From a virus (taxonomy: Duplodnaviria > Heunggongvirae > Uroviricota > Caudoviricetes), in IMG/VR virus record IMGVR_UViG_3300028840_006732: 64,000 nt of DNA; one strand, 5' to 3'. Shown piece by piece: positions 3,582-24,874 of the stretch. Under the pieces are notes generated by a model, which saw only the letters and a program-made list of their open reading frames with translations, did not search any database and was not told the DNA's origin. A program made the position numbers and the translations under genes. Each line of letters begins with the position of its first letter. The stretch's first letter is position 1.

Positions 3582-4013
3582 ATGGCATCCGAGGTTACCG
3601 GTTCGCAGGCCCCGTTCGGGGCGCCCAAGGAAACTGCCGAGGTGACCGACCACAAGACGCGGTTCCTCGCTACCATCGAGACGATTGTCGAGGGGGCCAA
3701 GAAGCTCCGCGAGTTCTGCCCCCAGGAAGAGGAGATGTTCTTCAGCACCTCTATTCAAGGGGTCCGCCTGACCTGCTCGCAGAGCTGCCTGGAGATGGCA
3801 CACAAGATCTGGGCGGAGACGGCGCCCAACCCTTGGGGACCTCGGAGCATGCTCGGCCTCGGCCAGTGTCCTCCGGGTGCCGTGGCTGCGGGCGGCATCA
3901 CCCGCGAGATGCTAGAACAGATGAAGAAGAGGCAGGCCGGTCTGCGGGAGACTGCCACGGCCGGCCCGGTTCCCGAAGCGGAAGGAGGCAAGGAGGACGA
4001 TGGATCGGCATGA
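3582..4013 (+). CDS. hypothetical protein
   Basis: AAGGAGG RBS at 3564-3570. Alternative TTG/GTG starts at 3549/3576. Confidence 0.5.
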   Translation: MASEVTGSQAPFGAPKETAEVTDHKTRFLATIETIVEGAKKLREFCPQEEEMFFSTSIQGVRLTCSQSCLEMAHKIWAETAPNPWGPRSMLGLGQCPPGAVAAGGITREMLEQMKKRQAGLRETATAGPVPEAEGGKEDDGSA

Positions 4014-4551
4014 CAACCCTCGTATCGTGGAGGTAAGGACCTTCAAGGACTTCCGCGGCCAGCTCACCGAGGCCTTCCACGAGGAGCGAGACTTGGGGAT
4101 CGGTGAGATCAAGCAGACCCTTTGCTCCATGTCCAAGAGCAACGTCGTCCGCGGCCTCCACTACCAGTGGCCCAACCCGATGGGCAAGCTGGTGATGTGC
4201 GTCTCCGGCCAGATCATCGACGTCGTCCTCGACATCCGCCGGGGCAGCAACACCTTCGGACAATCTTCGGCCTGGGCGTTGGGCCCGTATCAGCGGGAGG
4301 CGTTGTGGGTGCCGCAAGGCTTCGCCCACGGCTTCATGGCCCTCACCAACAACGCGGTCGTGCTCTACTTCTGCGACCAAGTCTTCGACCCGCAGTGCGA
4401 TCGGGCGATCAACGCTTTTGATCCCTCTCTCAGCATTGCCTGGCCGCCGGCAACCGGATCGGCCGAGGCCAAACACATTCAGAGCGACAAGGACGCGGAC
4501 GCTCCCATGCTCAAGGATGTACCCGAACGCCATCTTCCCGGACTGGTTTGA
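4000..4551 (+). CDS. rmlC: dTDP-4-dehydrorhamnose 3,5-epimerase-like cupin (RmlC family)
   Basis: Motifs RGLHYQ, KLVMCVSGQIIDVVLDIRRGSNTFGQ and WVPQGFAHGF match the RmlC fold signature. Confidence 0.8.
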   Translation: MDRHDNPRIVEVRTFKDFRGQLTEAFHEERDLGIGEIKQTLCSMSKSNVVRGLHYQWPNPMGKLVMCVSGQIIDVVLDIRRGSNTFGQSSAWALGPYQREALWVPQGFAHGFMALTNNAVVLYFCDQVFDPQCDRAINAFDPSLSIAWPPATGSAEAKHIQSDKDADAPMLKDVPERHLPGLV

Positions 4552-4568
4552 ACTCAGGAGACGATGAC

Positions 4569-5198
4569 ATGGATCAGAACGAGGCGGCGTCCAACCGGCG
4601 CCAGCTCCTGGGGAACACAATCATGGCCGGCTTAGGCTACCTGGCCGGCGTGTTCTCCGGCTGGAAAATCTGGGGTAGCAGCGCAGTTCACGGCCCCGTC
4701 GATGACGACAAGCCGAAGCCCAAGCCGGACCCGGATGGGCAGATCGAATCGTCGTCCGCAGAGGCGATCAAGCGCCTGCGAGGCGTCCCGATCGTGGACA
4801 AGGAGTTTGGCAGTTGCGGCTACATGTCCGCTGGGCGACTGTGGGTGGAGTTTACCCAGGATCTCGTGCGAGACACAGGGCAGGGCACGGTGATCGGGCA
4901 CGTGCCTCACCTGCTGATTCGCATGCGGGGTATTCCCCTGAAGGACAGTAGCTCGCATGGCCACTTCCTCATCCACAGGGTGCTGTCGGATAGCCGCAGC
5001 GCCCTTGAGGCTCGGGATCTTCTCCTCTCGATCCGCAACGCCTACGACGTCACCCCCGAGGAGAGGTTCCTGCTGGAGGAAATGTCCAGGCGGATCAGCC
5101 TGGACATCGAGCCGGTCCCCACTCCGGAACCCATCGCCGAGCACTTGATCGCCCAGCACTTGCAGTATTTCATTCGCCCCCATCACCGCAGCGCCTAG
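4569..5198 (+). CDS. hypothetical protein with possible Tat signal (RRQLLGNTIMAGLGYLAG)
   Basis: AGGAG RBS 8 nt upstream. RR motif followed by a hydrophobic stretch. Confidence 0.5.
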   Translation: MDQNEAASNRRQLLGNTIMAGLGYLAGVFSGWKIWGSSAVHGPVDDDKPKPKPDPDGQIESSSAEAIKRLRGVPIVDKEFGSCGYMSAGRLWVEFTQDLVRDTGQGTVIGHVPHLLIRMRGIPLKDSSSHGHFLIHRVLSDSRSALEARDLLLSIRNAYDVTPEERFLLEEMSRRISLDIEPVPTPEPIAEHLIAQHLQYFIRPHHRSA

Positions 5199-5227
5199 CC
5201 GTTTCCCGGCCCCGGTAAGGAAGCCAA

Positions 5228-6355
5228 ATGATCAAGGCGGCCATGGTAACTCCGAACCTTACGCTTGGCGGTGCCGAGCGGTGGGTTGTGGACATGGTGA
5301 AGCACTCGGACCCTACTCGGGTGCGCTGGACGGGCGTGGCATGCAGCAGCTACGGAGGCTGCGACCAGAGCCTGGCCACGGAACTGCGAGCGCACGTGCC
5401 GCTGTATGCCAACCGTTGCCTGGGACGGCCGGCCCACGCCAAACCTTTCTTCTGGCCGGCAATCAAGGAGATCACCGGCCCCGACTTCCGGCTGACGGTC
5501 CAGGAGGCCTGCAAGGATGCCGACGTGATTGTCACCTGGGGCTCGCCGGACCTGAGCTACTTCCTCGGCCCTTTCAAGGTGCCCAAGATCGTCTGCTCCC
5601 ACACGACGCGGCGGGAGGACAAGCCTCGCCCCGTCACCGGGGTGACCCACCTGGCCGCCGTCTCCGAGGCGGCGATGAAATACTTCGACGGCCGCCAAGG
5701 GAACAATCTTCCTCGACGGGTGATCTACAACGGCGCCGATCCGGTCCGCTGCCGGGCAACTCGCACGCGGCGTGAAGTCCGTGCCGCTTGGAAGCTCACC
5801 GAGGGGCATGTCGTGGTCGGCTATCTAGGACGCCAGTCCCCGGAGAAGAATCCGCTGGCCCCGGCCGAAGCCATCTGCGAGATGCCCAGCAAGTACCACG
5901 CGGTCTACGTCGGCGTGGGACCGCAGGGAGACGGTGTCTGCGAGGACACATTCGCCTGGTGCGAGCATCACGTCCCGGGTAGATTTCACATGTTCCCTCC
6001 AACTGCGGCCGTGGGGAACGTGCTGGCCGGCTTCGACGTGCTCATGCTGGCCAGCTTTCGTGAGGCGTTCAGCTTGACGCTCATCGAGGCGTGGCTGGCC
6101 GGCGTCCCTGTTGTGGCAACTCCCGTGGGGTCTGTGCCGGAAGTCCAGCGGCGGTTTGGGGACATGGTGTTTCTCGTTCCTTGCAAACCGACGCCCGAGG
6201 AGCTGCGGCTGGCGATTACGATGGCCACTACGCGGCCGTTGCGAAGGAGGATCGTCGAGAGGGCGCAACGGGTCGCCCTGGAGCATTTCACGGTTCGGAA
6301 GATGGTCGAGCGTTGGACGACCTATCTTGAGGAGGTGGTGAGTGGCCGATGCTAA
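5228..6355 (+). CDS. glycosyltransferase family 1 (GT4-like, GT-B fold)
   Basis: N-terminal GGAERWV. C-terminal EAFSLTLIEAWLAGVPVVATPVGSVPE, typical of the GT1 EX7E region. Confidence 0.8.
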   Translation: MIKAAMVTPNLTLGGAERWVVDMVKHSDPTRVRWTGVACSSYGGCDQSLATELRAHVPLYANRCLGRPAHAKPFFWPAIKEITGPDFRLTVQEACKDADVIVTWGSPDLSYFLGPFKVPKIVCSHTTRREDKPRPVTGVTHLAAVSEAAMKYFDGRQGNNLPRRVIYNGADPVRCRATRTRREVRAAWKLTEGHVVVGYLGRQSPEKNPLAPAEAICEMPSKYHAVYVGVGPQGDGVCEDTFAWCEHHVPGRFHMFPPTAAVGNVLAGFDVLMLASFREAFSLTLIEAWLAGVPVVATPVGSVPEVQRRFGDMVFLVPCKPTPEELRLAITMATTRPLRRRIVERAQRVALEHFTVRKMVERWTTYLEEVVSGRC

Positions 6356-7169
6356 GCTAGAAGTGGTGATCCCCTGCTATCGGGACAAGACGCGACTGCG
6401 GTTTTGCATCGAGGGTCTTGCCCGCCAGGAGCCGCTTCCCGAGTTGGTTCGCTTCACCTGCGACGGCGGGGATCGGGACATTCAGGAGTGGCTCGACCGG
6501 GCCGTGGACGATCGCTTCGAGTACCGCTTCCACTACCTGGAGCCGGAGACGGAGCTGCGCCGCGAGGGGATCGCTTTGAACCTGGCCTTCCACTACTGCC
6601 GGGCGGAGCGGGCCTTGATCCTCTCCGACGACATGGTCTTGGCCCCCGGCGTACTGAAGGCCCACACCGAGGAGGCGGCCGACGACGAGGCCCTGGTGGG
6701 CATCCGCCGCAAGGTGGCCCTGCACAGCATCCCCACGTTGAGCCCCAGGAAGTGGACCTACGGCCAGCTCGATGCCCTTGTTTGGCGTCAGGACTCTCGT
6801 ATCGTACCGCCGGACAAGTTCCCCGGCGGCAAGCCCCTGAAGAACGGCCGCGGCTTCTTGGGCTGCCACGTGAGCGTCCCCATGCCCGCCGTGCGGAAGA
6901 TCGGTGGCTTCGATGCGATGTATTGTGGCGGAGGCTCCAGAGGTGACGTGGATCTCGGAGAGCGTCTGCTGGCCTCGGAGGTGAAGCTGATCGCGCGTCC
7001 CGATCTCTTCGCCTATCATTTGGACCACGACCCGACGTCCAACAAGCTGTCGCTGGTCGACCGCGCCGAGGCTTTGATGCAAACCTCAGCCAGGCGACGG
7101 ATTCGGGTCCGCAACTGTGGGCCAATCGAGACGTTGAAAGAAGACGAGAACCCCTGGTGGAATCAGTGA
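6342..7169 (+). CDS. glycosyltransferase family 2-like (GT-A fold)
   Basis: VVIPCYRD N-terminal motif and a DDMV DXD-like motif. GTG start 7 nt after GGAGG. Overlaps the upstream stop. Confidence 0.65.
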   Translation: MADAKLEVVIPCYRDKTRLRFCIEGLARQEPLPELVRFTCDGGDRDIQEWLDRAVDDRFEYRFHYLEPETELRREGIALNLAFHYCRAERALILSDDMVLAPGVLKAHTEEAADDEALVGIRRKVALHSIPTLSPRKWTYGQLDALVWRQDSRIVPPDKFPGGKPLKNGRGFLGCHVSVPMPAVRKIGGFDAMYCGGGSRGDVDLGERLLASEVKLIARPDLFAYHLDHDPTSNKLSLVDRAEALMQTSARRRIRVRNCGPIETLKEDENPWWNQ

Positions 7170-7170
7170 C

Positions 7171-7710
7171 ATGAAACTCCATCTAGGCTGCGGGGCGGTC
7201 CTCCTGAAGGGCTGGATCAACATCGACATCAAGGTGAAGCCCAGCGCCGACGACCCGATATGCTGGCGGCGAAATCTCTGCTACGGTCTCCCCATGATCG
7301 GCAACGGCAAGGTGTCCTTCATCCACAGCGAGCACTTCCTGGAGCATCTGACGCCCGACGAGAGCAGGCTGCTGTTGCATGATTGCCGTCGCGTGCTCAA
7401 GCCGGGCGGCGTGATCCGCACCGGCATGCCCTCGCTGGCGTATTCTGTTCAGCGATACTTGGACGGGACATGGCGGGAGATGTGGTGGGCCAAGAAGGAC
7501 GGAATCCAGACAGCCGCCGAGTATCTCAACTGCTGTTTCCGCTGGTGGGGTCACCGGTGGCTCTACGACGAGGAGGAGTTAGTCCGCCGGCTGAAGGAGG
7601 CCGGCTTCACGGAGACCCGTTCGGCCGTCTACCGGGAGAGCACTGTCCCCGAACTGCGCGATTTGGAGTCGCAGCAGACCACCACGGTGATCGTCGAGGC
7701 AGTCAAGTGA
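7171..7710 (+). CDS. class I SAM-dependent methyltransferase
   Basis: LHLGCG motif I and LKPGGVIRTG motif. Small size typical of Methyltransf_11/23. Confidence 0.7.
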   Translation: MKLHLGCGAVLLKGWINIDIKVKPSADDPICWRRNLCYGLPMIGNGKVSFIHSEHFLEHLTPDESRLLLHDCRRVLKPGGVIRTGMPSLAYSVQRYLDGTWREMWWAKKDGIQTAAEYLNCCFRWWGHRWLYDEEELVRRLKEAGFTETRSAVYRESTVPELRDLESQQTTTVIVEAVK

Positions 7711-7718: not shown

Positions 7719-8789
7719 ATGCTCCGCGTTGAAGTCCTAAATCGTCAGTCCCCGATGGACAAGTTCCACCTGGGGTGCCTCCAGACTCCGGAGATGAAGA
7801 AGTGCCTCCACGAGGCCGGGGTCGAGATGCGTTTCAGCCCGAGGACCGAGTATTTCACTCCCGACGTGGATGTAGCTGCCGTTTGTCTTCGCCGCGACGA
7901 CAAGGAGAAGTACGAGTCCATCCTGGAGAAGGCCCTCTCGCTCCCGCGACACGTGCCCATCTTGATGTGGGACTGGTCGGACTTCGCCGACGTCAGCAGG
8001 CGGGAGAGAAAGTGCCTGTTGTGCTACCGAGTCAGCGGTATCTACAAGTCGAAGCTCTTTCGCGATCTGTCGTTCTACCGGCGTGCGAATCCCAAGCTCA
8101 ACGACCAGTGGGAACAGCCTGGCGAGCATCATCGTATCTTCCGCCGGCTTTGTCCCGACCTCTACATGGAGGGAGATTTTGCCGAGCCGTTGCCTCTGGA
8201 TACGGGAAAGCTGGGGCTGTGGCCTTGCTCGGCTACCTGGCTGCGGATGCAGTATCTTCGGGAGAATGGACCGGAAGATAAGCCGATCGACGTATTCTTC
8301 GCTGGTACGACGAACTACGGGAAGACGCCGATCACCACACATCGTCGACTGTGCTGCGAGGCCATGGCCAGGCTGCCTGACAGTTGGAATGTCAAGGTCT
8401 TCGATAGCAGCCAGCAGTGGGTTCAGCAGCGGGACTACTTCAGACTCTGTCTTCAAAGCAAGATTTTCGTTTCGCCGTGGGGTTGGGGTGCCGCTTCGTA
8501 CCGAGACTTCGAGTCCGTCTTCTCGGCCGCCGCAATGATAAAGCCCCCGGCCGGGTTCATCCGCACTTGGCCCGACGTGCTTCCTTCGGCTATCACTTGC
8601 AATCCGGACTTCACCGACTTGCGGGAGCGCTGTGAAGAGGTGCTGGATACATGGGAGGATCGCCGCGAGGGCTTGTTGCGGGGCAGGGAGGAGATCCTCC
8701 AGGCGACGACTTCGGAGAAGGTTGCTCACTACCTGGCCGCACACTTTTATCGTGAGAGGGAGAATCTATGCCCGGAGTCAGGTGGGTGA
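7719..8789 (+). CDS. hypothetical protein (possible glycan-modifying enzyme)
   Basis: Long ORF with high GC3 in operon context. No confident motif. Confidence 0.55.
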   Translation: MLRVEVLNRQSPMDKFHLGCLQTPEMKKCLHEAGVEMRFSPRTEYFTPDVDVAAVCLRRDDKEKYESILEKALSLPRHVPILMWDWSDFADVSRRERKCLLCYRVSGIYKSKLFRDLSFYRRANPKLNDQWEQPGEHHRIFRRLCPDLYMEGDFAEPLPLDTGKLGLWPCSATWLRMQYLRENGPEDKPIDVFFAGTTNYGKTPITTHRRLCCEAMARLPDSWNVKVFDSSQQWVQQRDYFRLCLQSKIFVSPWGWGAASYRDFESVFSAAAMIKPPAGFIRTWPDVLPSAITCNPDFTDLRERCEEVLDTWEDRREGLLRGREEILQATTSEKVAHYLAAHFYRERENLCPESGG

Positions 8790-17065: not shown

Positions 17066-17275
17066 ATGGTGCGGCGCGCATGGAAGTACGCCAAGATCGT
17101 CGGTGTGATGGTCCTGGCCGGGCTCGTCGAGGACCTGCTGGCCCTGTGGCTGGTCACGGGGAAGTGGTGGATCGACGGCCGCAGTTTGGGAATCATCGTC
17201 GCCGTGGCGCTGGTGTTCGGCTTTCTTGTGGACAGGATCAAGAGCGATGGCGGCGGTACGGATACCGCTTCCTGA
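17066..17275 (+). CDS. small two-TM membrane protein (holin-like size class)
   Basis: Two hydrophobic helices (IVGVMVLAGLV and IIVAVALVFGFLV). High GC3. Confidence 0.45.
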   Translation: MVRRAWKYAKIVGVMVLAGLVEDLLALWLVTGKWWIDGRSLGIIVAVALVFGFLVDRIKSDGGGTDTAS

Positions 17276-17989: not shown

Positions 17990-18142
17990 GCCAGCGCATC
18001 CGCTACCCCAACGACGGCCACGACTGGCGAATCTGCGACTGCGACGTCTGCAAGCAGAAGCGGAGAGCTACCGGTACGGAACCCAAGATCCTGCCCGGCC
18101 AGGATCTCTTCAAGCTCGATCTGATGCCCAAGGAAGAGCCTC

Positions 18143-18839: not shown

Positions 18840-18859
18840 CTTCAAAAGCGGTTTTGAGA
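18840..18859. repeat. palindromic motif copy 2 (reverse orientation), CTTCAAAAGCGGTTTTGAGA, abutting the ATG start at 18859
   Basis: Reverse complement shares the 17-mer CTCAAAACCGCTTTTGA with copies 1, 3 and 4. Confidence 0.7.
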
Positions 18860-19968: not shown

Positions 19969-20191
19969 CTTGCAACAAGTCTACCGCTACAATCAGGGTT
20001 GATTGTCAGATGCACTGGACGCCGACCGGAGGTCCTACCGGCCGGTGGCCGAGCCGCGTCGTCTAAGCGAGGACGTCGCTCTTAGCGTCCGACGCAGCAC
20101 TGGGCCGTTGCCCTCCTGCTCGCCGGAGACAACCAGGGCGGAAATGGGCGGGATCGAACCGCCCCGCGGCTTTTCAAGGGGTCGGTGTCGC

Positions 20192-20266
20192 GCCGGCGTA
20201 GCTCAGTGACAGAGCGTCTCAGCCTACGGGCGGAGAAGGTTGGGGGTTCGATTCCCTCCGCCGGCC
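20192..20266 (+). tRNA. tRNA-like element, 75 nt, with non-canonical anticodon arm and D-loop. Possibly a degenerate or atypical tRNA.
   Basis: Acceptor stem GCCGGCG/CGCCGGC, 7 bp. D-arm GCTC-AGTGACA-GAGC. T-arm GGGGG-TTCGATT-CCCTC. The anticodon region folds as a 7-bp stem (one A-G mismatch) with a 6-nt loop, not 5 bp + 7 nt. The D-loop lacks GG. Confidence 0.45.
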
Positions 20267-20328
20267 CCTATTCGTGCAATGGTGGTATCGGGGAGAGCCG
20301 GTCACTTTCCCGCTTCCACTCGGACGGT

Positions 20329-20368
20329 AGACAAGGCCAGGGTCGCCCAGCCCTGGCCTTGTCTTTTG
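20329..20368 (+). terminator. rho-independent-type terminator hairpin (14-bp perfect stem AGACAAGGCCAGGG/CCCTGGCCTTGTCT, 8-nt loop, TTT tail)
   Basis: Perfect inverted repeat read directly. Lies downstream of the tRNA-like element and upstream of a 140-bp lower-GC gap. Confidence 0.65.
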
Positions 20369-20523: not shown

Positions 20524-21513
20524 ATGGGAGACTCCCGACGTGGTTTCCTTACGAAGTGCCTTGGCGGCCTGGCGATCCCGCTGGGCCTGGGTGCTTCTGC
20601 GGTGGCAGTCGACGCCGCTGCAACAGAGAAGAAGGCCTTGCCGTTTTCTCCGTCCCCCGATACGGAGAAGAGCTTTGGCAAGGGTACATCTCGACTCACT
20701 GTCGAGACCGACTTTACTCCCCCGGGCACCTCGGTCCTTCACCAGGACGACGGGCAGGTGTCCCTGGTTGATGAGCTGCTCGTCTACCGGCCCTTGCGGT
20801 CGCAGCCGTGGGTCGGTGCGCAGTTCCTTATCCCTCACGATCGCCAGGCGTTCGCCCAGTCAGTGTGCGTGTGCTCCCCAAAGGGTTTTCTCCCCGAGCT
20901 GCGCTACGAGGAGAATCGCAACTGCGATGCCTTTCCCGCGTTGTTCGACGCCCAGGGAAGGCGGTTCCCGCTCCAGTTGATGGCTTGCCAGCGCGACCGC
21001 CGGCTCCAGGTCGACCGCATCTTCATGGGAGGGCTCTTGCCCGTGAAGTTCACCCGGTCGCTGGAGGAATTGAAGATCGCCTTCATGCGTTGCAAGAAGT
21101 GCGGCTTCTACCATCGCTGCCTGACCCACGAGGCGGGCGAGCCGATGGGTTTCACCAGAAACTGGGTGCTGCACGAGAAGGTCGACACTTCGACGGACGT
21201 CTGTCCGCGGTGTCGCCACAGGGAGCGAGAGCGTATTGAGTACAAGGATGTCCTCAACATCGAGAAGCTCTACATGACGCCCACTAGCAGCCATCTGGTC
21301 TTCAGTGAGCCTGATCCGCACTGGAAGCCGTCTCGTGCTGCGCATGCGGCGCCTCCGTGGCCGTTGGGCCCGGGTGATCTCGACGTCAGCAACCGGCCGC
21401 AATGGCTGGGCATGGAGGTAGGCAAGCGACCGGTGGCACAGGTGGAGCCGAAGCCGTCTCCCTTCGCGGAGGCCTTCAGCGTTTCCTTTGCCTCGCTGCT
21501 GTCCAGCCTGTAA
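20524..21513 (+). CDS. secreted Cys-rich hypothetical protein with Tat signal (RRGFLTKCLGGLAIPLGLGASA)
   Basis: GGAGG 5 nt upstream. Cys clusters CKKCGFYHRC and CPRCRHRERER. Confidence 0.6.
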   Translation: MGDSRRGFLTKCLGGLAIPLGLGASAVAVDAAATEKKALPFSPSPDTEKSFGKGTSRLTVETDFTPPGTSVLHQDDGQVSLVDELLVYRPLRSQPWVGAQFLIPHDRQAFAQSVCVCSPKGFLPELRYEENRNCDAFPALFDAQGRRFPLQLMACQRDRRLQVDRIFMGGLLPVKFTRSLEELKIAFMRCKKCGFYHRCLTHEAGEPMGFTRNWVLHEKVDTSTDVCPRCRHRERERIEYKDVLNIEKLYMTPTSSHLVFSEPDPHWKPSRAAHAAPPWPLGPGDLDVSNRPQWLGMEVGKRPVAQVEPKPSPFAEAFSVSFASLLSSL

Positions 21514-21565: not shown

Positions 21566-22429
21566 ATGCCTACCCTGGTCCCTCCGACCTTAGACGATGT
21601 TGGGGACAAGCCCGGTCAGTCGGATGAGAACCAGGAGACCAACGCCGAGGCGACTACCCACCGCGGGCAGCCTTGTCCTTTGGTCACCGGTCTTTTGGTA
21701 CTAGCCGATCCGCGAAGGCTCGTGATTGCACGAACCACGGTGAACCAGTTTGTTCGCCAGACCTACAGCCGCAAAGAAATCGTCATCGTCAACTCGTCGG
21801 GCCGTCGTGTGACGACCCACGATCATCCTCTGGTACGCGAGTTCCTCGTCCCCCGGGACGACTACCCGACCATCGGTGGTCTACGGAATCGTGCTATCCG
21901 GGAGGCGAAGGGCGATTGGCTGCTGTCGATCGACGACGATGATCATAGCCATCCTCATCGCGTGGCCTTCCAGATGGCCCACCGTGTCGAGGGTTGCTGT
22001 GTGTTGCTCTCCCACCAGGTTCGTGTCGACATCCGGAACACGGTGATCTGCGTTCCGGTGGAAAGCCTGGGCCACGCCAGTACGGTGTTGTGGTCCGCCG
22101 CGGACTCTCCGTTCTTTCCGGAGAACGGAGCGCCTGGCGAAGACAAGCAGTTCGTCGAGCAGTTCGGCGAGCGGCGCGTCATCCTTGATAACGGCCCGGA
22201 CTGGTTTCCCGGGCCCTGTCTCCATGTGGCCATTTACCACGGCCTCAACGTCAAGAGTCGAGAGGAGTTCCTGGGCGAGTATGCTGGCCCCGTGTTTCAC
22301 GGGGCGCGTTGCCCGAATGTTACGGACGACGTGCTGGAGTACGTGAAGGTGGCGGTCGGGCACTTCAACGTCCGCACGCTGGAACGTCCTCCGGAAGAGG
22401 ATGTGGTAGGGTCTGTGACCCTACGTTGA
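21566..22429 (+). CDS. GT-A fold glycosyltransferase (GT2-like), DDDDHSHPHR motif
   Basis: LLSIDDDDHSHPHR DXD region. Paralogous to the motif in 23912..24874 (WDDDNLSHPDR). Confidence 0.55.
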   Translation: MPTLVPPTLDDVGDKPGQSDENQETNAEATTHRGQPCPLVTGLLVLADPRRLVIARTTVNQFVRQTYSRKEIVIVNSSGRRVTTHDHPLVREFLVPRDDYPTIGGLRNRAIREAKGDWLLSIDDDDHSHPHRVAFQMAHRVEGCCVLLSHQVRVDIRNTVICVPVESLGHASTVLWSAADSPFFPENGAPGEDKQFVEQFGERRVILDNGPDWFPGPCLHVAIYHGLNVKSREEFLGEYAGPVFHGARCPNVTDDVLEYVKVAVGHFNVRTLERPPEEDVVGSVTLR

Positions 22430-22464: not shown

Positions 22465-23253
22465 ATGTCTTCCCAGAGAAGCAAGGACATCCTCAACTTC
22501 GTGGTAACAGGTCAAGTACGATGCGGAGCGAGCGTCATCCAGACGTCCGTACGATCTCACCCTAAGGCGACATGCCATGGAGACTTGCTACATCACGAGG
22601 AGGATGTCCGCCGCGAGACCCATGAGGAGTATTTCGGGGCGCCTTTTAAGGCGGCCATGCCGGAGCACTGCATCCCCGGCGAGGTCAACCCCGAGCAATA
22701 CCTAAGCGCCCGAGTCTTCGACAGCCCGCTGAACGGCGAGGAGGCAATCGGCGTCAAAGTTCTGTTCCCCCACCTGAAGGCCAACGATCTGTGGGAGTTC
22801 CTGCATGAGCGTAGCCTGGAGGGGGACTTCTGTACCATCTTGGTCCTGCGCAACCCCGTGGCTTGCTACGTCTCTTGGAAGCAAGCACTCCAGACCGGGG
22901 TCTTCCAGCAGGACATCGACGACCGGCAACCATTGAACTCTCCGCTGCCGGTCGATCTCGAACCCTCCAAGCTCGTGCCGTTCGTGCGTTGGCACGTGGC
23001 CTTCGAGGAGCGGGTTCGGCAGTATTGTGATGATCGGCTGGAGATTCACTACCGCGAGTTGTTCCTCAACTATCACGAGGTCATGGGTCAGGTGTTCGAG
23101 TATCTCGAACTGCCTCCCTATGCCGCTGTGACGCCGAGCTGCCGGCGGTTGAAGAACCGGAGCATGCGGCAACGAATCGCCAACTTCCACACTGTTCGGC
23201 TTGAGTTGCCGGACGACGTCCGAGTGTACCTTGACGCGGAGGATTTGTTCTGA
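22465..23253 (+). CDS. sulfotransferase-like P-loop protein (second copy of this class)
   Basis: VVTGQVRCGASV P-loop-like region. TILVLRNPVACYVS resembles the 3'-PB motif. Weak assignment. Confidence 0.45.
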   Translation: MSSQRSKDILNFVVTGQVRCGASVIQTSVRSHPKATCHGDLLHHEEDVRRETHEEYFGAPFKAAMPEHCIPGEVNPEQYLSARVFDSPLNGEEAIGVKVLFPHLKANDLWEFLHERSLEGDFCTILVLRNPVACYVSWKQALQTGVFQQDIDDRQPLNSPLPVDLEPSKLVPFVRWHVAFEERVRQYCDDRLEIHYRELFLNYHEVMGQVFEYLELPPYAAVTPSCRRLKNRSMRQRIANFHTVRLELPDDVRVYLDAEDLF

Positions 23254-23254
23254 A

Positions 23255-23899
23255 ATGGATATAGTGGCTATTGTCCCAGCAGACCCGCCGATCCTTGATT
23301 GGCTGGGTGACAGCTCCTCCTTGGAGCTGGCCGTGCGGAAGCTCGAAGACTTCCGCGAGATCGACCGAATTGCCGTGCTGGTGGACAAGGAAGTCAGCCA
23401 TCCCGACGAGACCCCGGCTCTCCGAGACGCCGTCGCCGTGGACGACCGGGTGCGTGTCTACTTTCCTATCGCTCGCGATGAGCACGCCCCGCTGGCCGAC
23501 GAGATCGCGGCCTACTTGCGGGCCAGCGACGACGGCCACGCGAGCCACTATTTGCTCGTGAATCCCGCTTTCCCGTTCCTTGATCGTGACACGATCGCCA
23601 AGGTGCTGTACGCTGTCCATCCGGAGGGTCACCCGGCCGCAGTCACCGTGAGCGGCAAGTACATCGTCCAGGCCCAGGCGGACGGTGCCCGTCTCATCCG
23701 CGGCTGCTCGGTCTACGATGCCTGCCTGGCTGTGACGCACGGTTTATGGGAGTCGCAGGCTGGGGGGCTGGCGGACGGTAAAGATCTTCGTTTGGGTCAT
23801 ACGGTTGGCCTGGTTAGCATCAATCAGTTGGAGGCTATCAACTTGCGAGACGCTCGCGGGTGGGAAATGGCTTTCACCCTGGCGGCCTTCGGCTCCTAG
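23255..23899 (+). CDS. nucleotidyltransferase/cytidylyltransferase-like protein (CMP-sugar synthetase-like GT-A fold)
   Basis: MDIVAIVPAD N-terminus resembles the IPAR motif of acylneuraminate/KDO cytidylyltransferases. Confidence 0.5.
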   Translation: MDIVAIVPADPPILDWLGDSSSLELAVRKLEDFREIDRIAVLVDKEVSHPDETPALRDAVAVDDRVRVYFPIARDEHAPLADEIAAYLRASDDGHASHYLLVNPAFPFLDRDTIAKVLYAVHPEGHPAAVTVSGKYIVQAQADGARLIRGCSVYDACLAVTHGLWESQAGGLADGKDLRLGHTVGLVSINQLEAINLRDARGWEMAFTLAAFGS

Positions 23900-23911
23900 A
23901 CAGGAGGCAGA

Positions 23912-24874
23912 GTGTTGAACGAACCCGTTACCATCGGTGCGATCTGCGTATCGCACTCGTCCCGCTGGGGCCTGCTCCAGCGGGCGATCGTCAATTTCCT
24001 GGAGCAGGAGTATTCCGAGCGGCGGTTGTGGATCGTCGTCAAGGAACCCGGCTACGCGGAGCAGATCCGCACGTTCCTCAACGACCGCCGGCTTCTCAAC
24101 AGCGTCGAGGTCGTGCCCTCGGAGTTCGTCGAGGTCAGGCTGGTCGATTTCCAGACGCCGACCGAGGCTTTCGTCCTGGCTCTCGGTTGGGCCTGGTGCG
24201 ACTGGATTGCATGTTGGGACGACGACAACCTGTCCCACCCCGATCGTTTCAACTTCCAGCTTAACCGTGCCGGCCCCCATGGCCCCTGCTTGCTGGCGCA
24301 GTCGCTGTACTACTTCTACGACAGCGACGAGCTGTTCGTGACCGACTACGCCCAGCCGGCCGGCCAGCCTCACGAGCGGTGTGCTCTGGGCTCGCTGCTG
24401 TTTCCCCGGGCGGCCTTGCCGGTGCTCGACGTGAGGGCTGGCGGTCCCTGGTCGATCCAGGTGCTCACGAAGATGGGCATGGAGTACGACTTGATCGGCG
24501 ATTGTGCGGGGTATTTCCTTGCCGGCTCCAACGGTGACAATTATCGTGGAGAGGAGCTGCATCGCCGCCTGGGGAGCAAGCTGCCGGGGACGCTGACCCG
24601 GGCGCAGTTGTGCCAGGAGAGTAAGGCCGAGGAGGTCGAGGGCTGGCTTTCCTTCTACAGGTTCCCCAGCACCGCGGTCGATGTCTGCGGCAAGGATCTC
24701 CAGGCTTTCCGGGCGGAACAGCAGCGGATGTGGCCGGACTGGTTGGCAACGACGGCGTATCCTGAGGATTACAAGCTGTGGCTGCCCAGTTCTCGGCAGA
24801 AGACGGCCGCCAAGCTGGCCGCGGCTCACGAAAAGAAGCTCCGCCAGGAAGCTGCGGCGGCCGAGAAGAAATGA
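23912..24874 (+). CDS. GT-A fold glycosyltransferase (GT2-like), WDDDNLSHPDR motif
   Basis: GTG start 5 nt after AGGAGG. DXD region. Confidence 0.55.
   Translation: MLNEPVTIGAICVSHSSRWGLLQRAIVNFLEQEYSERRLWIVVKEPGYAEQIRTFLNDRRLLNSVEVVPSEFVEVRLVDFQTPTEAFVLALGWAWCDWIACWDDDNLSHPDRFNFQLNRAGPHGPCLLAQSLYYFYDSDELFVTDYAQPAGQPHERCALGSLLFPRAALPVLDVRAGGPWSIQVLTKMGMEYDLIGDCAGYFLAGSNGDNYRGEELHRRLGSKLPGTLTRAQLCQESKAEEVEGWLSFYRFPSTAVDVCGKDLQAFRAEQQRMWPDWLATTAYPEDYKLWLPSSRQKTAAKLAAAHEKKLRQEAAAAEKK

What the first reader, a model, noticed from the sequence alone, without database searches (positions are those of the whole stretch)
4000..24874. About 25-gene glycan biosynthesis and decoration module in a virus-like context, including a CitE-like lyase plus MaoC-like hydratase pair and two sulfotransferase-like genes
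The cluster includes RmlC-like epimerase (4000), GT1 (5228), GT2 (6342), methyltransferases (7171, 11359), a sulfotransferase (9606), a DegT aminotransferase (10237), a CitE-like enzyme (12434), a MaoC-like enzyme (13375), a PglD-like N-acetyltransferase (13844), a GT-D-like enzyme (18143) and an RmlB-like SDR (18859). After the tRNA-like element come two paralogous GT-A enzymes (21566, 23912), a second sulfotransferase-like gene (22465) and a cytidylyltransferase-like gene (23255). An HNH endonuclease (17247) and small membrane proteins are embedded in the cluster. The palindromic motif occurs on both sides of it, so the cluster appears to belong to the same element as the RNAP/RNR module. 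The CitE-like and MaoC-like pair resemble the acyl-CoA lyase/hydratase pairs of central metabolism; here they may build an unusual acyl donor for N-acylation of the amino sugar made by the DegT enzyme. Their role in this cluster is inference only. Self-encoded glycosylation of this breadth is known for giant eukaryotic viruses but is rare for prokaryotic viruses.
Basis: partly seen in the sequence, partly recalled or inferred. Interest (0 to 1): 0.7.

Follow-up and report, generated by a model that had tools for sequence, protein, structure and literature searches.

The report
Jumbo phage glycan-building gene island
A roughly 236-kb tailed phage carries a 21-kb block of sugar-making and sugar-decorating genes, part shared with its relatives and part its own, including a four-gene set that probably builds an unusual acid to hang on an amino sugar. 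It is a bacterial-virus counterpart of the self-glycosylation known from giant viruses.

Summary
Window 4000-24874 carries 29 tightly packed + strand ORFs plus a tRNA-like element. About 16 have recognisable glycan functions; the HNH, GT-D, third GT2 and cytidylyltransferase calls are weak.

The block is native to a jumbo tailed phage. Codon usage matches the rest of the window. A 16-nt palindromic motif occurs inside and outside it. The flanking genes are syntenic with 224-kb IMG/VR phage contigs, and phage Arash shares the RNAP split and a structural protein.

The island has two layers:
- A clade-conserved core (about 15449-24874): GT-D-like, 4,6-dehydratase, Tat-exported Zn-ribbon protein, GT2, sulfotransferase, IspD/TarI-like, GT2.
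- A lineage-specific extension (4000-15434): RmlC, GT4, GT2, methyltransferase, a second sulfotransferase, a DesI-like aminotransferase, and a block of methyltransferase, CitE-like lyase, MaoC-like hydratase and VioB-like N-acyltransferase.

MaoC-like, CitE-like and acyltransferase genes sit together in 40 of 80 bacterial species' polysaccharide loci, which supports the acyl-donor idea. I found no paper describing this cassette.

No Wzx, Wzy or priming transferase was detected in the island, so direct glycosylation of a phage-chosen acceptor in the cytoplasm is the most likely mode. The acceptor and the acyl group remain unknown.

The parts
4000..4551 (+). RmlC-like dTDP-4-dehydrorhamnose 3,5-epimerase (cupin)
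   Evidence: PF00908 6.7e-48. TIGR01221 148 bits against a 155.75 cut-off. RGLH motif present.
4569..5198 (+). Unknown 209-aa ORF with an N-terminal twin-arginine-like leader (NRRQLLG plus a hydrophobic stretch)
   Evidence: Sequence inspection. No Pfam or PHROG hit.
5228..6355 (+). GT-B glycosyltransferase (GT4 / Glycos_transf_1)
   Evidence: PF13692 4e-12 and PF00534 2e-11.
6342..7169 (+). GT-A glycosyltransferase (GT2a)
   Evidence: PF00535 2.5e-9. 50% identical homologue next to the acyl block in L133. 27% homologue in phage relative L132.
7171..7710 (+). Class I SAM methyltransferase
   Evidence: PF13489 3.7e-6. 31% homologue in relative L141.
7719..9622 (+). Two unassigned ORFs (7719-8789 and 8768-9622)
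   Evidence: Only a Glyco_trans_1_2 hit at E 0.04 for 7719. No PDB hit. No PHROG hit.
9606..10244 (+). PAPS-type sulfotransferase ST1
   Evidence: PF03567 27 bits, above the gathering score of 22. PKTASTAL (5'-PSB) and RNPFTRATS (3'-PB) motifs. Not seen in relatives.
10237..11355 (+). DesI/VioA-like NDP-4-keto-6-deoxyhexose C4 aminotransferase
   Evidence: PF01041 1e-92. TIGR04427 DesI 3e-84, below the equivalog cut-off. Best PDB match 2po3 at 5e-65; next best 5e-43.
11359..12471 (+). Methyltransferase with an AprA-type winged helix, first gene of the acyl block. Closest structures are alpha-keto-acid C-beta methyltransferases.
   Evidence: PF13649, PF23525 and PF23589. PDB MppJ 8e-7 and 2-ketoarginine methyltransferase 3e-4. 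Same position next to CitE in L004, L007, L010, L011 and L133.
12434..13375 (+). CitE-like CoA-ester C-C lyase
   Evidence: PF03328 2e-35. citE 4e-41 and RipC/Ccl 3e-40, both far below equivalog cut-offs. PDB matches are CitE, CLYBL, RipC and malyl-CoA lyase. R73, E136 and D163 are invariant in the subfamily.
13375..13869 (+). MaoC-like single hot-dog (R)-hydratase/dehydratase
   Evidence: PF01575 9e-19 and PF19315 9e-13. RipB/Ich 4e-37, below the cut-off. Aligns to both halves of mesaconyl-CoA and beta-methylmalyl-CoA (de)hydratases 4e3e and 8hgn; NHHPLHID motif.
13844..14497 (+). NeuD/PglB/VioB-family left-handed beta-helix N-acyltransferase
   Evidence: TIGR03570 1.3e-39. Hexapep plus PglD_N. 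Best PDB match VioB 7txp at 3.6e-19.
14499..16378 (+). Two unassigned ORFs (14499-15434 and 15449-16378). The second begins the clade-conserved part.
   Evidence: No Pfam or PHROG hits. 15449 has a 35% homologue in L138.
16344..17275 (+). Four small ORFs; the last (17066-17275) has two TM helices
   Evidence: Hydropathy scan. 16790-17008 has a 38% homologue in L138.
17247..17600 (+). Degenerate HNH_3-like ORF
   Evidence: HNH_3 E 0.023, below the gathering score. The sequence reads IYFRDGNPLNCQRSNL where the HNH_3 signature, as I recall it, reads vdHidGn.
17600..18171 (+). DUF3307-like small membrane protein (17600-17989) and a 61-aa ORF (17986-18171)
   Evidence: PF11750 E 0.0026. TM segments. 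Short homologue next to DegT in L137. 17986 has a 47% homologue in L141.
18143..18838 (+). GT-D-fold-like protein (weak call), clade-conserved
   Evidence: PF22882 4.3e-5, 23.4 bits, below the gathering score of 27. 49-52% homologues in L138 and L141. No PDB sequence hit.
18842..18857 (.). Copy of the palindromic motif TCAAAAGCGGTTTTGA; it ends at 18857, one base before the dehydratase ATG at 18859
   Evidence: Exact copies at 499, 18842, 30753 and 56414; 0.05 expected. Upstream context.
18859..19968 (+). NDP-hexose (dTDP-glucose-like) 4,6-dehydratase, clade-conserved
   Evidence: PF16363 5e-43. TIGR01181 2e-57, below the cut-off. GIGGFIG, TDEVYG and YSASK motifs. 57-63% homologues in L138 and L141.
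19965..20361 (+). Promoter-like site (19965-19993), tRNA-like element without a normal anticodon loop (20192-20266), terminator hairpin (20338-20361). This site holds different insertions in relatives.
   Evidence: Relatives carry other inserts here.
20524..21513 (+). Tat-signal protein with a Cys4 Zn-ribbon-like motif, clade-conserved. Candidate exported acceptor or effector.
   Evidence: The SRRGFLTKCLGG leader and the FMRCxKCG...CPxC motif are conserved in the L138 and L141 homologues. No Pfam family.
21566..22429 (+). GT-A glycosyltransferase GT2b, clade-conserved
   Evidence: PF00535 1.4e-6. 33-49% homologues in L138-L141.
22465..23253 (+). PAPS-type sulfotransferase ST2 (NodH/Stf0/TPST-like fold), clade-conserved
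   Evidence: 41-60% homologues in L138-L141.
23255..23899 (+). IspD/TarI-like (cytidylyltransferase-fold) protein, divergent, clade-conserved
   Evidence: NTP_transf_3 E 0.034. Small family of 17 representatives. Its profile hits only TarI and IspD structures, best 1.4e-4. 27-28% homologues in L138, L139 and L141.
23912..24874 (+). GT-A-like glycosyltransferase GT2c, distant paralogue of GT2b, clade-conserved
   Evidence: PF00535 E 0.0085. 26% identical to GT2b, E 3e-7, shared DDDxxSHPxR motif. 28-47% homologues annotated Glycos_transf_2 in relatives.

Best explanation
The region is a glycan-biosynthesis and decoration island that is native to a jumbo tailed phage. The phage genome is at least 236 kb and 63% GC, has bacterial-type ribosome-binding sites, and has no identified host.

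The island has two layers.

(a) A core module shared with related phages (about 15449-24874). It holds a GT-D-like protein, an NDP-hexose 4,6-dehydratase, a Tat-exported Zn-ribbon protein, two GT2 glycosyltransferases, a PAPS sulfotransferase and an IspD/TarI-like protein.

(b) A lineage-specific extension (4000-15434). It adds RmlC, a GT4, a GT2, a methyltransferase, a second sulfotransferase, a DesI/VioA-like C4 aminotransferase, and a four-gene acyl block.

Inferred chemistry:
1. Host-made dTDP-glucose is dehydrated to dTDP-4-keto-6-deoxyglucose.
2. The DesI-like enzyme aminates it to a viosamine-type 4-amino-4,6-dideoxyhexose. A second branch goes through RmlC towards an L-6-deoxyhexose.
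3. In parallel, the CitE-like lyase condenses acetyl- or propionyl-CoA with a 2-oxo acid (pyruvate or glyoxylate). The methyltransferase may first C-methylate that 2-oxo acid. The product would be a citramalyl-, malyl- or methylmalyl-type CoA ester.
4. The MaoC-like enzyme interconverts this ester with its ene form (mesaconyl- or itaconyl-type).
5. The VioB-like transferase puts this acid on the sugar's 4-amine in place of acetate.
6. Four to six glycosyltransferases assemble the sugars. Methyl- and sulfotransferases decorate them.

The island has no flippase, polymerase or priming phosphoglycosyl transferase. Assembly is therefore most likely direct, in the cytoplasm, on an acceptor chosen by the phage. 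That acceptor could be a virion protein or the conserved Tat-exported protein encoded inside the module.

Shown: gene identities, phage ownership, the core-versus-extension split, and the conserved linkage of the acyl genes to amino-sugar genes in bacteria.

Inferred: reaction order, identity of the acyl group, and the acceptor.
For: Gene identities.

Phage ownership:
- Codon usage and the shared motif.
- 236-kb contig.
- RNAP architecture and a structural protein shared with phage Arash and the Vibrio D-phages.
- Synteny with 224-kb IMG/VR contigs.

Core versus extension:
- L138, L139, L140 and L141 share SDR, Tat protein, GT2, ST2, the ~200-aa ORF and GT2, followed by the same neighbours (2H-SAK, CsrA, InPase). 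They differ upstream and between the SDR and the Tat gene.
- L132 has a different island at the same position: GT2 x3, GT47, GT11, three FkbM methyltransferases and an SDR.

Acyl block:
- MaoC-like gene within 3 kb of the CitE-like gene in 69 of 80 bacterial species. Trio with a VioB-like acyltransferase within 3 kb in 40. MaoC, acyltransferase and DegT within 10 kb in 41.
- The neighbours are SDRs, DegT, GTs, Wzx flippases, NTP transferases, NeuB and Bac_transf.
- The identical order MT, CitE, MaoC, acyltransferase occurs in L133 at 47-63% identity, and MT, CitE, MaoC in L004.
- The nearest characterised relatives of both enzymes act on C4/C5 dicarboxylic acyl-CoAs: RipC/CLYBL/malyl-CoA lyase, and RipB/mesaconyl-CoA hydratase.
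- The methyltransferase is nearest to the 2-oxo-acid C-methyltransferases MppJ and 2-ketoarginine methyltransferase.

No lipid-carrier machinery: no Pfam hit to Wzx, Wzy, Bac_transf or an ABC transporter, and no polytopic membrane protein in 4000-24874.
Against: - No enzyme reaches an NCBIfam equivalog cut-off, so substrate assignments rest on family-level similarity.
- No sugar-1-phosphate nucleotidyltransferase (RmlA) or RmlD-type reductase was found in the window.
- The acyl group cannot be named. I found no paper linking this cassette to a glycan structure.
- The citramalyl-CoA lyase equilibrium normally favours cleavage (my own knowledge).
- No acceptor is identified: no Ser/Thr-rich protein in the window, and the capsid and tail genes are outside it.
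- Small membrane proteins (17066, 17600) could serve a lipid-linked route together with host enzymes.
- About 10 ORFs in the island remain without any function.
- The methyltransferase-to-PDB similarity is weak (31 bits).
Confidence: 0.55

Rival explanations
1. The island remodels the host cell envelope during infection rather than a phage protein. The phage-made nucleotide sugars and transferases would feed the host's own undecaprenyl-phosphate, Wzx/Wzy or ABC export machinery. This would change the O-antigen, capsule or S-layer glycan, for example to block superinfection or to stop progeny sticking to debris.
For: - The same enzymes and the same acyl cassette sit in bacterial surface-polysaccharide loci.
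- Two ORFs in the island carry Tat-type leaders, so part of the module acts outside the cytoplasm.
- Small membrane proteins (17066-17275 and the DUF3307-like 17600-17989) are embedded. A homologue of the latter lies next to DegT in another phage contig.
- An Rz-like spanin candidate upstream (E 1.9e-4) hints at a diderm host with an outer-membrane glycan.
Against: - The island has no priming transferase, flippase, polymerase, ligase or ABC transporter. The bacterial loci do carry them.
- From my own knowledge, known phage seroconversion modules are small (Gtr-type or acetyltransferases) and belong to temperate phages.
- No integrase was seen in the window, and the phage has its own RNAP, which suggests a lytic lifestyle.
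Confidence: 0.25
2. The glycosyltransferases and sugar pathway hypermodify the phage DNA, with glycans on hydroxymethylated bases, to evade restriction.
For: Virus-encoded GTs that decorate DNA with diverse glycans are documented (Pyle et al. 2024, cited in PMC12619734). The phage has nucleotide-metabolism genes nearby: a class II RNR and InPase.
Against: - No dCMP or dUMP hydroxymethylase-like gene was detected among the window ORFs scanned. Several mid-window ORFs were never run against Pfam, and most of the genome is unseen.
- From my own knowledge, sulfation, N-acyl amino sugars, Tat-exported partners and four to six GTs have no precedent in DNA modification.
Confidence: 0.05
3. The CitE-like and MaoC-like genes are auxiliary central-metabolism genes (itaconate, glyoxylate or C5-dicarboxylate metabolism) that merely happen to lie in the island. 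The acyltransferase would simply N-acetylate the sugar.
For: The best NCBIfam names are RipC/Ccl and RipB/Ich of itaconate degradation and citE. The PDB neighbours are central-metabolism enzymes.
Against: - Scores are far below the equivalog cut-offs (138 against 375, and 128 against 340).
- The pathway's CoA transferase (RipA) is absent.
- The genes overlap or abut the methyltransferase and the acyltransferase in one block.
- The same trio recurs in 40 of 80 bacterial polysaccharide loci.
Confidence: 0.05
4. The contig is a bacterial chromosome. The module would be an ordinary O-antigen or capsule locus, and the RNAP/RNR part a separate integrated element.
For: Individual enzymes have their closest homologues in bacteria. 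One relative, L138, was binned into a bacterial MAG assembly.
Against: - Uniform codon usage and a shared motif across cluster and RNAP module.
- Unidirectional dense genes, nearly all without PHROG, Pfam or phage-database matches.
- The cluster's core and its flanks are co-linear in five other contigs, including IMG/VR viral genomes.
- No housekeeping genes, and no Wzx, Wzy or priming transferase.
Confidence: 0.02

Closest known systems
Glycosylation gene clusters of Megavirinae giant viruses (Mimivirus R132-L143 and relatives; PMC10117803, PMC9614988)
   Same: - A virus-encoded, clustered set of nucleotide-sugar enzymes plus several GT2s plus tailoring enzymes.
- A viosamine branch (4,6-dehydratase, aminotransferase, N-acyltransferase) and a rhamnose-type branch with O-methylation.
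- Cluster content differs between clades at a conserved genomic position.
- Sulfate-modifying enzymes are predicted in Moumouvirus australiensis.
- Bacterial-like origin of the genes.
   Different: - Here the virus is a tailed phage of a prokaryote: Shine-Dalgarno sites, and Caudoviricetes relatives.
- The sugars are probably dTDP-linked rather than UDP-linked (DesI, RmlB and RmlC similarity).
- The N-acyl group is probably not acetate, since a methyltransferase/CitE/MaoC block is present.
- A Tat-exported protein is part of the module.
- The acceptor is unknown; in Mimivirus it is the fibril proteins.
Mycobacteriophage virion glycosylation (Che8, Corndog, Myrna; Freeman et al. 2023, cited; details from my own knowledge)
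   Same: Phage-encoded glycosyltransferases act in the cytoplasm, without lipid-carrier machinery, to glycosylate phage structural proteins.
   Different: - Those phages are about 50-165 kb and, as I recall, encode a few GTs while relying mostly on host nucleotide sugars.
- Here there is a complete amino-sugar branch, two sulfotransferases, three methyltransferases and an acyl-CoA block.
- Glycosylation of the virion is not shown here.
Bacterial dTDP-viosamine / N-acyl-viosamine pathways: RmlB-VioA-VioB, the Pseudomonas syringae flagellin 'Vio island' (mentioned), and the Bacillus anthrose antABCD operon (my own knowledge)
   Same: - A 4,6-dehydratase, a C4 aminotransferase closest to DesI, and a LbH N-acyltransferase closest to VioB.
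- A dedicated hydratase that prepares a non-acetyl acyl-CoA for the N-acyltransferase, as AntA does for AntD.
- O-methylation of the product.
   Different: - The acyl-forming enzymes belong to other families. Here they are a MaoC hot-dog and a CitE TIM-barrel, against a crotonase (AntA) or FabH/FabG-like enzymes in the Vio island.
- No RmlA is present.
- No score reaches an equivalog cut-off.
RipABC/Ict-Ich-Ccl itaconate degradation, and the Mcl/Mch steps of the 3-hydroxypropionate bi-cycle and ethylmalonyl-CoA pathway
   Same: A CitE-family CoA-ester lyase paired with a MaoC-family hydratase that interconvert citramalyl- or methylmalyl-CoA with itaconyl- or mesaconyl-CoA. These are the best NCBIfam and PDB matches for both proteins.
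   Different: - No CoA transferase is present.
- Scores are about one third of the equivalog cut-offs.
- The genomic context is amino-sugar biosynthesis, not catabolism.
- The proposed direction is synthetic, with the product captured by an N-acyltransferase.
Uncharacterised MaoC, CitE, acyltransferase cassette of bacterial O-antigen, capsule and nonulosonic-acid loci (Bacteroidota, Cloacimonadota, Leptospira, Calditrichota and others; found here)
   Same: The same three families are adjacent, next to DegT, SDR dehydratases and GTs. The closest versions (43-63% CitE identity) also carry the AprA-WH methyltransferase.
   Different: - Most bacterial versions have a second CitE paralogue instead of the methyltransferase, in the order CitE2, MaoC, CitE1, acyltransferase.
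- They sit beside flippases and priming transferases.
- The phage version is rare: no relative was found in IMG/VR by CitE or MaoC pattern scans, and only one close relative in JGI metagenomes.

Membership tests
dTDP-viosamine pathway (RmlB, then VioA/DesI, then VioB) | NDP-hexose 4,6-dehydratase with Rossmann GxxGxxG, catalytic D-E and YxxxK | tested here: met
   GIGGFIG, TDEVYG and YSASK. PF16363 5e-43. TIGR01181 194 bits, below the equivalog cut-off of 365.
dTDP-viosamine pathway (RmlB, then VioA/DesI, then VioB) | PLP C4-aminotransferase specific for dTDP-4-keto-6-deoxy-D-glucose | tested here: inconclusive
   DesI is the best NCBIfam model (283 bits against a 650 cut-off) and by far the best PDB match (2po3 5e-65, next 5e-43). 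Substrate and stereochemistry are not testable in silico.
dTDP-viosamine pathway (RmlB, then VioA/DesI, then VioB) | LbH N-acyltransferase of the NeuD/PglB/VioB family | tested here: met
   TIGR03570 1.3e-39, 135.9 bits, a subfamily model with a 160.8 cut-off so slightly below it. Best PDB match VioB 7txp.
dTDP-viosamine pathway (RmlB, then VioA/DesI, then VioB) | Glucose-1-phosphate thymidylyltransferase (RmlA) supplying dTDP-glucose | tested here: not met
   No NTP_transferase hit among the cluster ORFs or the other window ORFs scanned. Several mid-window ORFs were not scanned against Pfam. The enzyme must come from the host or from another part of the genome.
Wzx/Wzy- or ABC-dependent O-antigen/capsule locus | Priming phosphoglycosyl transferase, flippase or ABC transporter, polymerase | tested here: not met
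   No Bac_transf, Polysacc_synt, Wzy or ABC hits, and no polytopic membrane protein in 4000-24874. These are present in the bacterial loci that carry the same cassette.
CitE / CoA-ester lyase family (HpcH_HpaI) | Family-level profile match above the curated threshold, and a conserved Arg/Glu/Asp core | tested here: met
   PF03328 122 bits against a gathering score of 25. R73, E136 and D163 are invariant in the 20-sequence subfamily alignment. Assigning these residues as substrate or Mg ligands is inference.
RipABC / Ict-Ich-Ccl itaconate degradation | Equivalog-level RipC and RipB, plus a family III CoA transferase (RipA) | tested here: not met
   RipC 138.5 bits against 375, RipB 127.7 against 340. 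No CoA transferase was found among the cluster ORFs or the other window ORFs scanned, or in the bacterial cassettes examined.
MaoC / (R)-specific hydratase (hot-dog) | Pfam match above threshold and a hydratase-2-like motif with His/Asp | tested here: met
   PF01575 67.8 bits against 27. The NHHPLHID motif aligns with the motif region of 4e3e, 8hgn and 4ffu. The canonical G-D of the motif is M-N here, so activity is plausible but not proven.
PAPS-dependent sulfotransferases | 5'-PSB and 3'-PB motifs with the sulfotransferase fold | tested here: met
   ST1: PF03567 above its gathering score, plus both motifs. ST2: homologues carry Sulfotransfer_3 or Sulfotransfer_1; model pLDDT 90.8; all 49 significant PDB fold hits are sulfotransferases, TM 0.42-0.51. 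The substrate class, sugar or protein tyrosine, is open because TPSTs are among the top hits.
IspD/TarI cytidylyltransferases | Profile similarity plus the N-terminal glycine-rich nucleotide-binding signature | tested here: inconclusive
   The family profile hits only TarI and IspD (1.4e-4, 7e-4). Pfam NTP_transf_3 is E 0.034. The family consensus AxVPV...WLG lacks an evident Gly-rich loop. The single-sequence model was unusable, pLDDT 44.
HNH homing endonuclease (HNH_3) | Catalytic His of the HNH motif and a score above the gathering threshold | tested here: not met
   14.8 bits against 24.8. The sequence reads IYFRDGNPLNCQRSNL. That Phe occupies the His position is my reading by eye against the remembered motif, not an alignment.
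GT-D fold glycosyltransferases (DUF1792-like) | Profile match above threshold | tested here: inconclusive
   23.4 bits against a gathering score of 27. No PDB sequence match. The gene is conserved at 49-52% in two relatives.
Caudoviricetes jumbo phage | Virion structural genes and relatives recognised as tailed phages | tested here: met
   - ORF 62729-end matches an Arash 'structural protein' (36%, 3e-23), the Vibrio D-phages and phage G gp19.
- Same RNAP split as Arash gp206/gp216.
- Synteny with 224-kb IMG/VR UViGs.
- Capsid, portal and terminase genes are not in the window, so they were not seen directly.
Virion protein glycosylation (mycobacteriophage or Mimivirus type) | Glycan attached to a capsid, tail or fibril protein | not testable with these tools
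   This needs glycoproteomics of virions. No Ser/Thr-rich candidate was found in the window.

The most novel reading that the evidence does not exclude
A clade of jumbo phages builds its own sulfated glycan directly on a phage-chosen protein, either a virion component or the conserved Tat-exported Zn-ribbon protein. This would be done in the cytoplasm without lipid-carrier machinery, making it a prokaryotic-virus equivalent of Mimivirus fibril glycosylation. In this member, the glycan would carry a viosamine-type sugar N-acylated with a C4-C6 hydroxy- or ene-dicarboxylic acid (citramalyl-, mesaconyl- or itaconyl-like, possibly C-methylated). That acid would be made by a previously uncharacterised pathway of methyltransferase, CitE-like lyase, MaoC-like hydratase and VioB-like transferase. 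The same pathway is widespread but unrecognised in bacterial surface-polysaccharide loci.
Probability: 0.3. Interest if true: 0.8.

Novelty: new variant of a known kind. Interest (0 to 1): 0.6.

Why it matters
1. Reach of viral self-glycosylation. Elaborate virus-encoded glycosylation (own nucleotide-sugar branch, many transferases, methylation, sulfation) is so far documented chemically for giant eukaryotic viruses, and in simpler form for mycobacteriophages. This finding would extend it to jumbo phages. The island behaves like an O-antigen locus of the virus: a conserved core with swappable accessory genes at a fixed genomic site across relatives. That pattern points to diversifying selection on a surface glycan, for example for immune or receptor shielding, or for host-range effects that matter in phage therapy and ecology.

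2. A testable enzymology lead. MaoC-like, CitE-like and N-acyltransferase genes are linked in half of 80 sampled bacterial species' polysaccharide loci, yet I found no paper describing the cassette. Working out its product would add a new N-acyl substituent, or explain an orphan one, in bacterial glycans. It would also improve annotation of many O-antigen and capsule loci now labelled 'citrate lyase beta' and 'MaoC dehydratase'.

3. A possible export route. A conserved Tat-exported protein sits beside GT2 and sulfotransferase genes. This raises the testable idea that a phage protein is modified in the cytoplasm and then exported.

Tried and rejected
- PHROGs on 20 window ORFs gave almost nothing.
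- tblastn of the 883-aa ORF, and of ten concatenated unknown ORFs, against 50,697 phage records gave no match.
- IMG/VR pattern scans with CitE, MaoC, ST1 and the 611-aa ORF found no relatives. The metagenome scan with the closest CitE pair returned only contigs already known.
- Contig look-ups meant to extend beyond the window ends failed or returned only the 12-kb Logan contig. Capsid, portal and terminase genes of this phage were therefore never seen.
- L136 encodes an HK97 capsid and a prohead protease near a homologue of window gene 28743. I first took this as clade evidence. I downgraded it because L136 shares only two genes with the window and its capsid resembles those of small siphophages.
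- The 611-aa ORF just downstream of the island is not detectably related to that capsid.
- The single-sequence AlphaFold model of ORF 23255 had pLDDT 44 and was not used.
- PDB sequence searches for ORFs 18143, 7719 and 23255 found nothing.
- Literature searches linking citramalyl-CoA, MaoC or citrate lyase to O-antigen or polysaccharide loci, and jumbo phages to sulfotransferases, found nothing relevant. One hit concerned the true citrate-fermentation operon.
- The 'moraphage' lineage paper describes a different clade without an RNAP.
- A eukaryotic giant virus was considered and rejected, because of the Shine-Dalgarno sites, Tat leaders and Caudoviricetes relatives.
- A search for Ser/Thr-rich acceptor proteins in the window found none convincing.

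Full report
**1. What is there**

The window is 63% GC throughout. With a GC3 filter, nearly all convincing coding frames lie on the + strand and are tightly packed. Most are preceded by GGAGG-type Shine-Dalgarno sites.

Between 4000 and 24874 I count 29 ORFs plus one tRNA-like element.

| Start | Call | Evidence |
|---|---|---|
| 4000 | RmlC | PF00908 6.7e-48 |
| 5228 | GT4 | |
| 6342 | GT2 | |
| 7171 | methyltransferase | |
| 9606 | sulfotransferase | PF03567 above its gathering score; both PAPS-binding motifs visible |
| 10237 | DegT aminotransferase | 1e-92; closest to DesI, 2po3 5e-65 against 5e-43 for the next structure |
| 11359 | methyltransferase | |
| 12434 | CitE/HpcH_HpaI lyase | 2e-35 |
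| 13375 | MaoC hydratase | 9e-19 |
| 13844 | NeuD/PglB/VioB-type acyltransferase | best PDB match VioB |
| 18859 | 4,6-dehydratase | GIGGFIG, TDEVYG, YSASK |
| 21566 | GT2 | |

Two weak calls were strengthened:
- ORF 22465 has 17 homologues carrying sulfotransferase domains. Its model has pLDDT 90.8, and all 49 significant PDB fold matches are PAPS sulfotransferases.
- ORF 23255 belongs to a small family whose profile hits only IspD/TarI cytidylyltransferases.

Three calls stay weak:
- The GT-D-like call is below the gathering score and has no PDB support.
- The third GT2 is weak: E 0.0085, though it is 26% identical to GT2b with a shared DDDxxSHPxR motif.
- The 'HNH' scores E 0.023, and Phe appears to replace the catalytic His. 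The His position is judged by eye from my memory of the HNH_3 motif.

About ten ORFs have no assignable function.

**2. Whose genes are they**

The exact proteins lie on a 236,137-bp metagenomic contig.

Evidence that the island belongs to the same element as the rest of the window:
- Cluster genes and the remaining window genes have the same GC3 (0.812). Their RSCU correlation is 0.984, within the range of random gene partitions.
- The near-palindrome TCAAAASCGSTTTTGA is exact at 499, 18842, 30753 and 56414, against 0.05 expected. The copy at 18842 ends one base before the dehydratase start codon.

Evidence that the element is a tailed phage:
- The window also encodes a class II RNR, an InPase-domain protein and a multisubunit RNAP.
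- The RNAP is split into a fused beta plus beta' N-part (43052-47494) and a beta' C-part (50668-54708).
- The same split occurs in Salmonella phage Arash (Caudoviricetes, 181 kb) and in Vibrio phages D69, D148 and D181, at about 30% identity.
- The window's last ORF matches an Arash 'structural protein' downstream of its RNAP (36%, 3e-23).
- IMG/VR holds relatives with 50-56% RNAP identity on contigs of 155-224 kb. Genes 36731-61458 are syntenic with these.

PHROGs and the phage database recognise almost nothing else. The element is therefore a jumbo tailed phage far from cultured ones. The bacterial-chromosome scenario is not supported.

**3. Anatomy: a conserved core and a private extension**

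Homologues of the second sulfotransferase led to four further contigs: L138 to L141. L141 comes from the same sample as the window's contig.

These contigs share, in order:
- the GT-D-like gene (49-52% identity);
- the dehydratase (57-63%; 30% in L140);
- the ~329-aa ORF 20524;
- GT2b;
- ST2 (41-60%);
- the ~200-aa ORF 23255 (27-28%);
- GT2c;
- then the same neighbours as in the window: a GerE-like ORF, homologues of 25063 and 25577, 2H-SAK, a minus-strand CsrA and InPase.

The leader of ORF 20524 is (S/T)RRxFLxxCLG in three phages, and a Cys4 motif is also conserved. It therefore looks like a genuine Tat substrate with a zinc ribbon.

The site between the dehydratase and this gene holds different inserts:
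- the tRNA-like element in the window;
- three radical-SAM/SPASM genes in L141;
- peptidase C14 and an amidohydrolase in L140.

Upstream, the fetched parts of these relatives lack the window's 4000-15434 block.

A more distant relative is L132, from a 224-kb UViG. At the equivalent position it has a different island: GT2 x3, GT47, GT11, three FkbM methyltransferases and an SDR. L137 has a DegT and a methyltransferase there.

A glycan island at this position is therefore a clade feature with variable content. This parallels the clade-specific glycogene clusters of Megavirinae.

**4. The acyl block**

NCBIfam ranks the CitE-like protein nearest citE and RipC/Ccl, and the MaoC-like protein nearest RipB/Ich. 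Both are far below equivalog cut-offs.

The PDB neighbours are CitE, CLYBL, RipC and malyl-CoA lyase for the lyase, and mesaconyl-CoA and beta-methylmalyl-CoA (de)hydratases for the hydratase. From established knowledge of these families, all of them interconvert C4/C5 hydroxy- or ene-dicarboxylic acyl-CoAs.

Gene context of the closest CitE homologues:
- They sit in polysaccharide or nonulosonic-acid loci beside the same AprA-WH methyltransferase, a MaoC gene and an N-acyltransferase, next to DegT.
- A 63% homologue (L133) has the identical order MT, CitE, MaoC, acyltransferase, followed by a 50% homologue of the phage's GT2a.

A scan of one genome per species returned 80 loci. The counts are:

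| Feature relative to the CitE-like gene | Loci (of 80) |
|---|---|
| MaoC within 3 kb | 69 |
| VioB-like acyltransferase also within 3 kb | 40 |
| MaoC, acyltransferase and DegT within 10 kb | 41 |
| Methyltransferase adjacent | 2 |

Many bacterial versions have a second CitE paralogue upstream of MaoC instead of the methyltransferase.

Flanking genes are SDRs, DegT, GT1, Wzx flippases, NTP transferases, NeuB and Bac_transf.

The methyltransferase's nearest structures are MppJ and 2-ketoarginine methyltransferase. From my own knowledge these are C-beta methyltransferases of 2-oxo acids. The similarity is weak.

Four literature searches found no description of this cassette.

I conclude, as comparative inference, that the block makes a non-acetyl acyl-CoA for the VioB-like enzyme. 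The acyl group itself cannot be named from sequence.

**5. How it most likely works**

Shown:
- enzyme families;
- phage ownership;
- the core-and-extension structure;
- linkage of the acyl genes to amino-sugar genes;
- the absence from the island of any priming transferase, flippase, polymerase, ABC transporter or polytopic membrane protein.

Inferred:
1. Host dTDP-glucose is converted by the dehydratase and the DesI-like aminotransferase to a viosamine-type sugar.
2. RmlC opens a second, L-6-deoxyhexose branch. No RmlD was seen.
3. The methyltransferase, CitE and MaoC make the acyl-CoA, and the VioB-like enzyme transfers it.
4. Four to six GTs assemble the glycan, and methyl- and sulfotransferases tailor it.
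5. Without lipid-carrier genes, assembly is probably direct on a protein in the cytoplasm, as in mycobacteriophages and giant viruses.

The acceptor could be a virion protein (not in the window) or the Tat-exported protein encoded within the core. Tyrosyl-protein sulfotransferases are among ST2's best fold matches, so ST2 might sulfate a protein rather than a sugar.

**6. Rivals**

- Host-envelope remodelling through host lipid-carrier machinery is the main alternative (0.25). The Tat leaders, the small membrane proteins and the bacterial ancestry of the genes fit it. The missing export genes and the lytic-looking genome argue against it.
- DNA glycan hypermodification is unlikely (0.05).
- CitE and MaoC as unrelated metabolic genes is unlikely (0.05).
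- A bacterial chromosome is unlikely (0.02).

**7. Novelty**

- Virus-encoded glycan clusters are known, and viral sulfotransferase-fold proteins exist in cyanophages, other phages and giant viruses. This is not a new category.
- It is a new variant: a jumbo-phage clade with a conserved core glycosylation and sulfation module, plus, in this member, an amino-sugar branch with an uncharacterised acyl-forming cassette.
- The cassette is also a lead for bacterial glycobiology.

**Limits**

- Most of the genome was not seen.
- No enzyme reaches equivalog level.
- The acceptor, the acyl group and the host are unknown.

Noticed in passing
window 20192-20266 (+), promoter-like site 19965-19993, terminator hairpin 20338-20361: The tRNA-like element scores 50.8 bits on Rfam tRNA and has normal acceptor, D and T arms. 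Its anticodon arm is a 4+3-bp interrupted stem closed by a 4-nt loop, and ARAGORN cannot name an anticodon. It has its own sigma-70-like promoter and a terminator. It cannot decode, so it may be a decoy for anticodon nucleases, a processing signal or an att-like remnant. In relatives, other genes occupy this site.
   Followed up: partly
window 499-514, 18842-18857, 30753-30768, 56414-56429 (exact); 46815-46830 (2 mismatches): The 16-nt near-palindrome TCAAAA(CCGC/GCGG)TTTTGA occurs 4-5 times against 0.05 expected. The copy at 18842 is in the opposite orientation and takes the place of a Shine-Dalgarno site one base before the dehydratase start codon. Three copies appear to lie inside long ORFs. 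Its function (operator, RNA hairpin) is unknown.
   Followed up: partly
window 29408-29668 (-): A canonical CsrA homologue ([48 protein letters not shown]) lies on the minus strand between the 2H-SAK-like gene (28743-29411) and the InPase gene. This arrangement is conserved in relatives L138, L140 and L141. It is the only minus-strand gene recognised in the window. It implies that the InPase ORF starts after 29668 rather than at 29228.
   Followed up: partly
window 20524-21513 and 4569-5198: Two ORFs inside the island have twin-arginine leaders. For 20524 the (S/T)RRxFLxxCLG leader and a Cys4 (FMRCxKCG...CPxC) motif are conserved in two other phages. A Tat-exported, probably zinc-binding phage protein is thus part of the conserved core, directly upstream of GT2 and sulfotransferase genes.
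   Followed up: partly
window 43052-47494 and 50668-54708: The multisubunit RNAP is split unusually into a fused beta plus beta' N-terminal part (1480 aa) and a separate beta' C-terminal part. The latter is extended to 1346 aa, and only about its first 45% matches relatives. The same split occurs in Salmonella phage Arash and Vibrio phages D69, D148 and D181.
   Followed up: partly
window 1583-2053, 2951-3502: ORF 1583-2053 has an internal signal-peptide-like stretch (MKKYAILFLAFVAILAFAAVSHSQC) followed by five copies of a 13-aa repeat (RRPVRRAVARVIE; 39-bp DNA period at 1856, 1895 and 1934). ORF 2951-3502 has one N-terminal TM helix plus a long coiled coil and a weak Rz-like spanin hit (PHROG 739, E 1.9e-4). 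Together they may be a lysis cassette and would hint at a diderm host.
   Followed up: no
L141 4012-6383 (ENA ERZ27256798 k141_348606); L140 4626-7993: Relatives carry other cargo at the variable site inside the core module. L141 has three radical-SAM/SPASM proteins and DUF1643. L140 has a caspase-like peptidase C14, an amidohydrolase-like gene and Cpn10.
   Followed up: no
L013, L029, L040, L051 (about 8700-9570 in each locus); L013 12179-13189: In many bacterial versions of the cassette a second, shorter HpcH/CitE paralogue lies directly upstream of MaoC (order CitE2, MaoC, CitE1, acyltransferase). In Tenacibaculum discolor a PylC-like ATP-grasp ligase and a Bac_transf priming transferase follow. 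Two lyases and a ligase suggest a more elaborate acyl or amide chemistry than a single condensation.
   Followed up: partly
window versus ENA contig k141_2288034 (locus L002): Mapping the CitE gene places window position 1 at about contig position 188,318. The 64-kb window would then run about 16 kb past the end of the 236,137-bp contig. Other assemblies of the same proteins have contigs of 174,442 bp and 12,209 bp. The window therefore comes from a differently permuted or different assembly, which would fit a circularly permuted or terminally redundant phage genome. This was not tested.
   Followed up: no
window 17247-17600: This HNH_3-like ORF reads Phe where I expect the catalytic His, judged by eye against the remembered HNH_3 motif. 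It has a basic, Gly-rich tail and overlaps the preceding 2-TM ORF. It looks like a decayed homing endonuclease, which fits this stretch being a recombination-prone junction between the private extension and the conserved core.
   Followed up: partly
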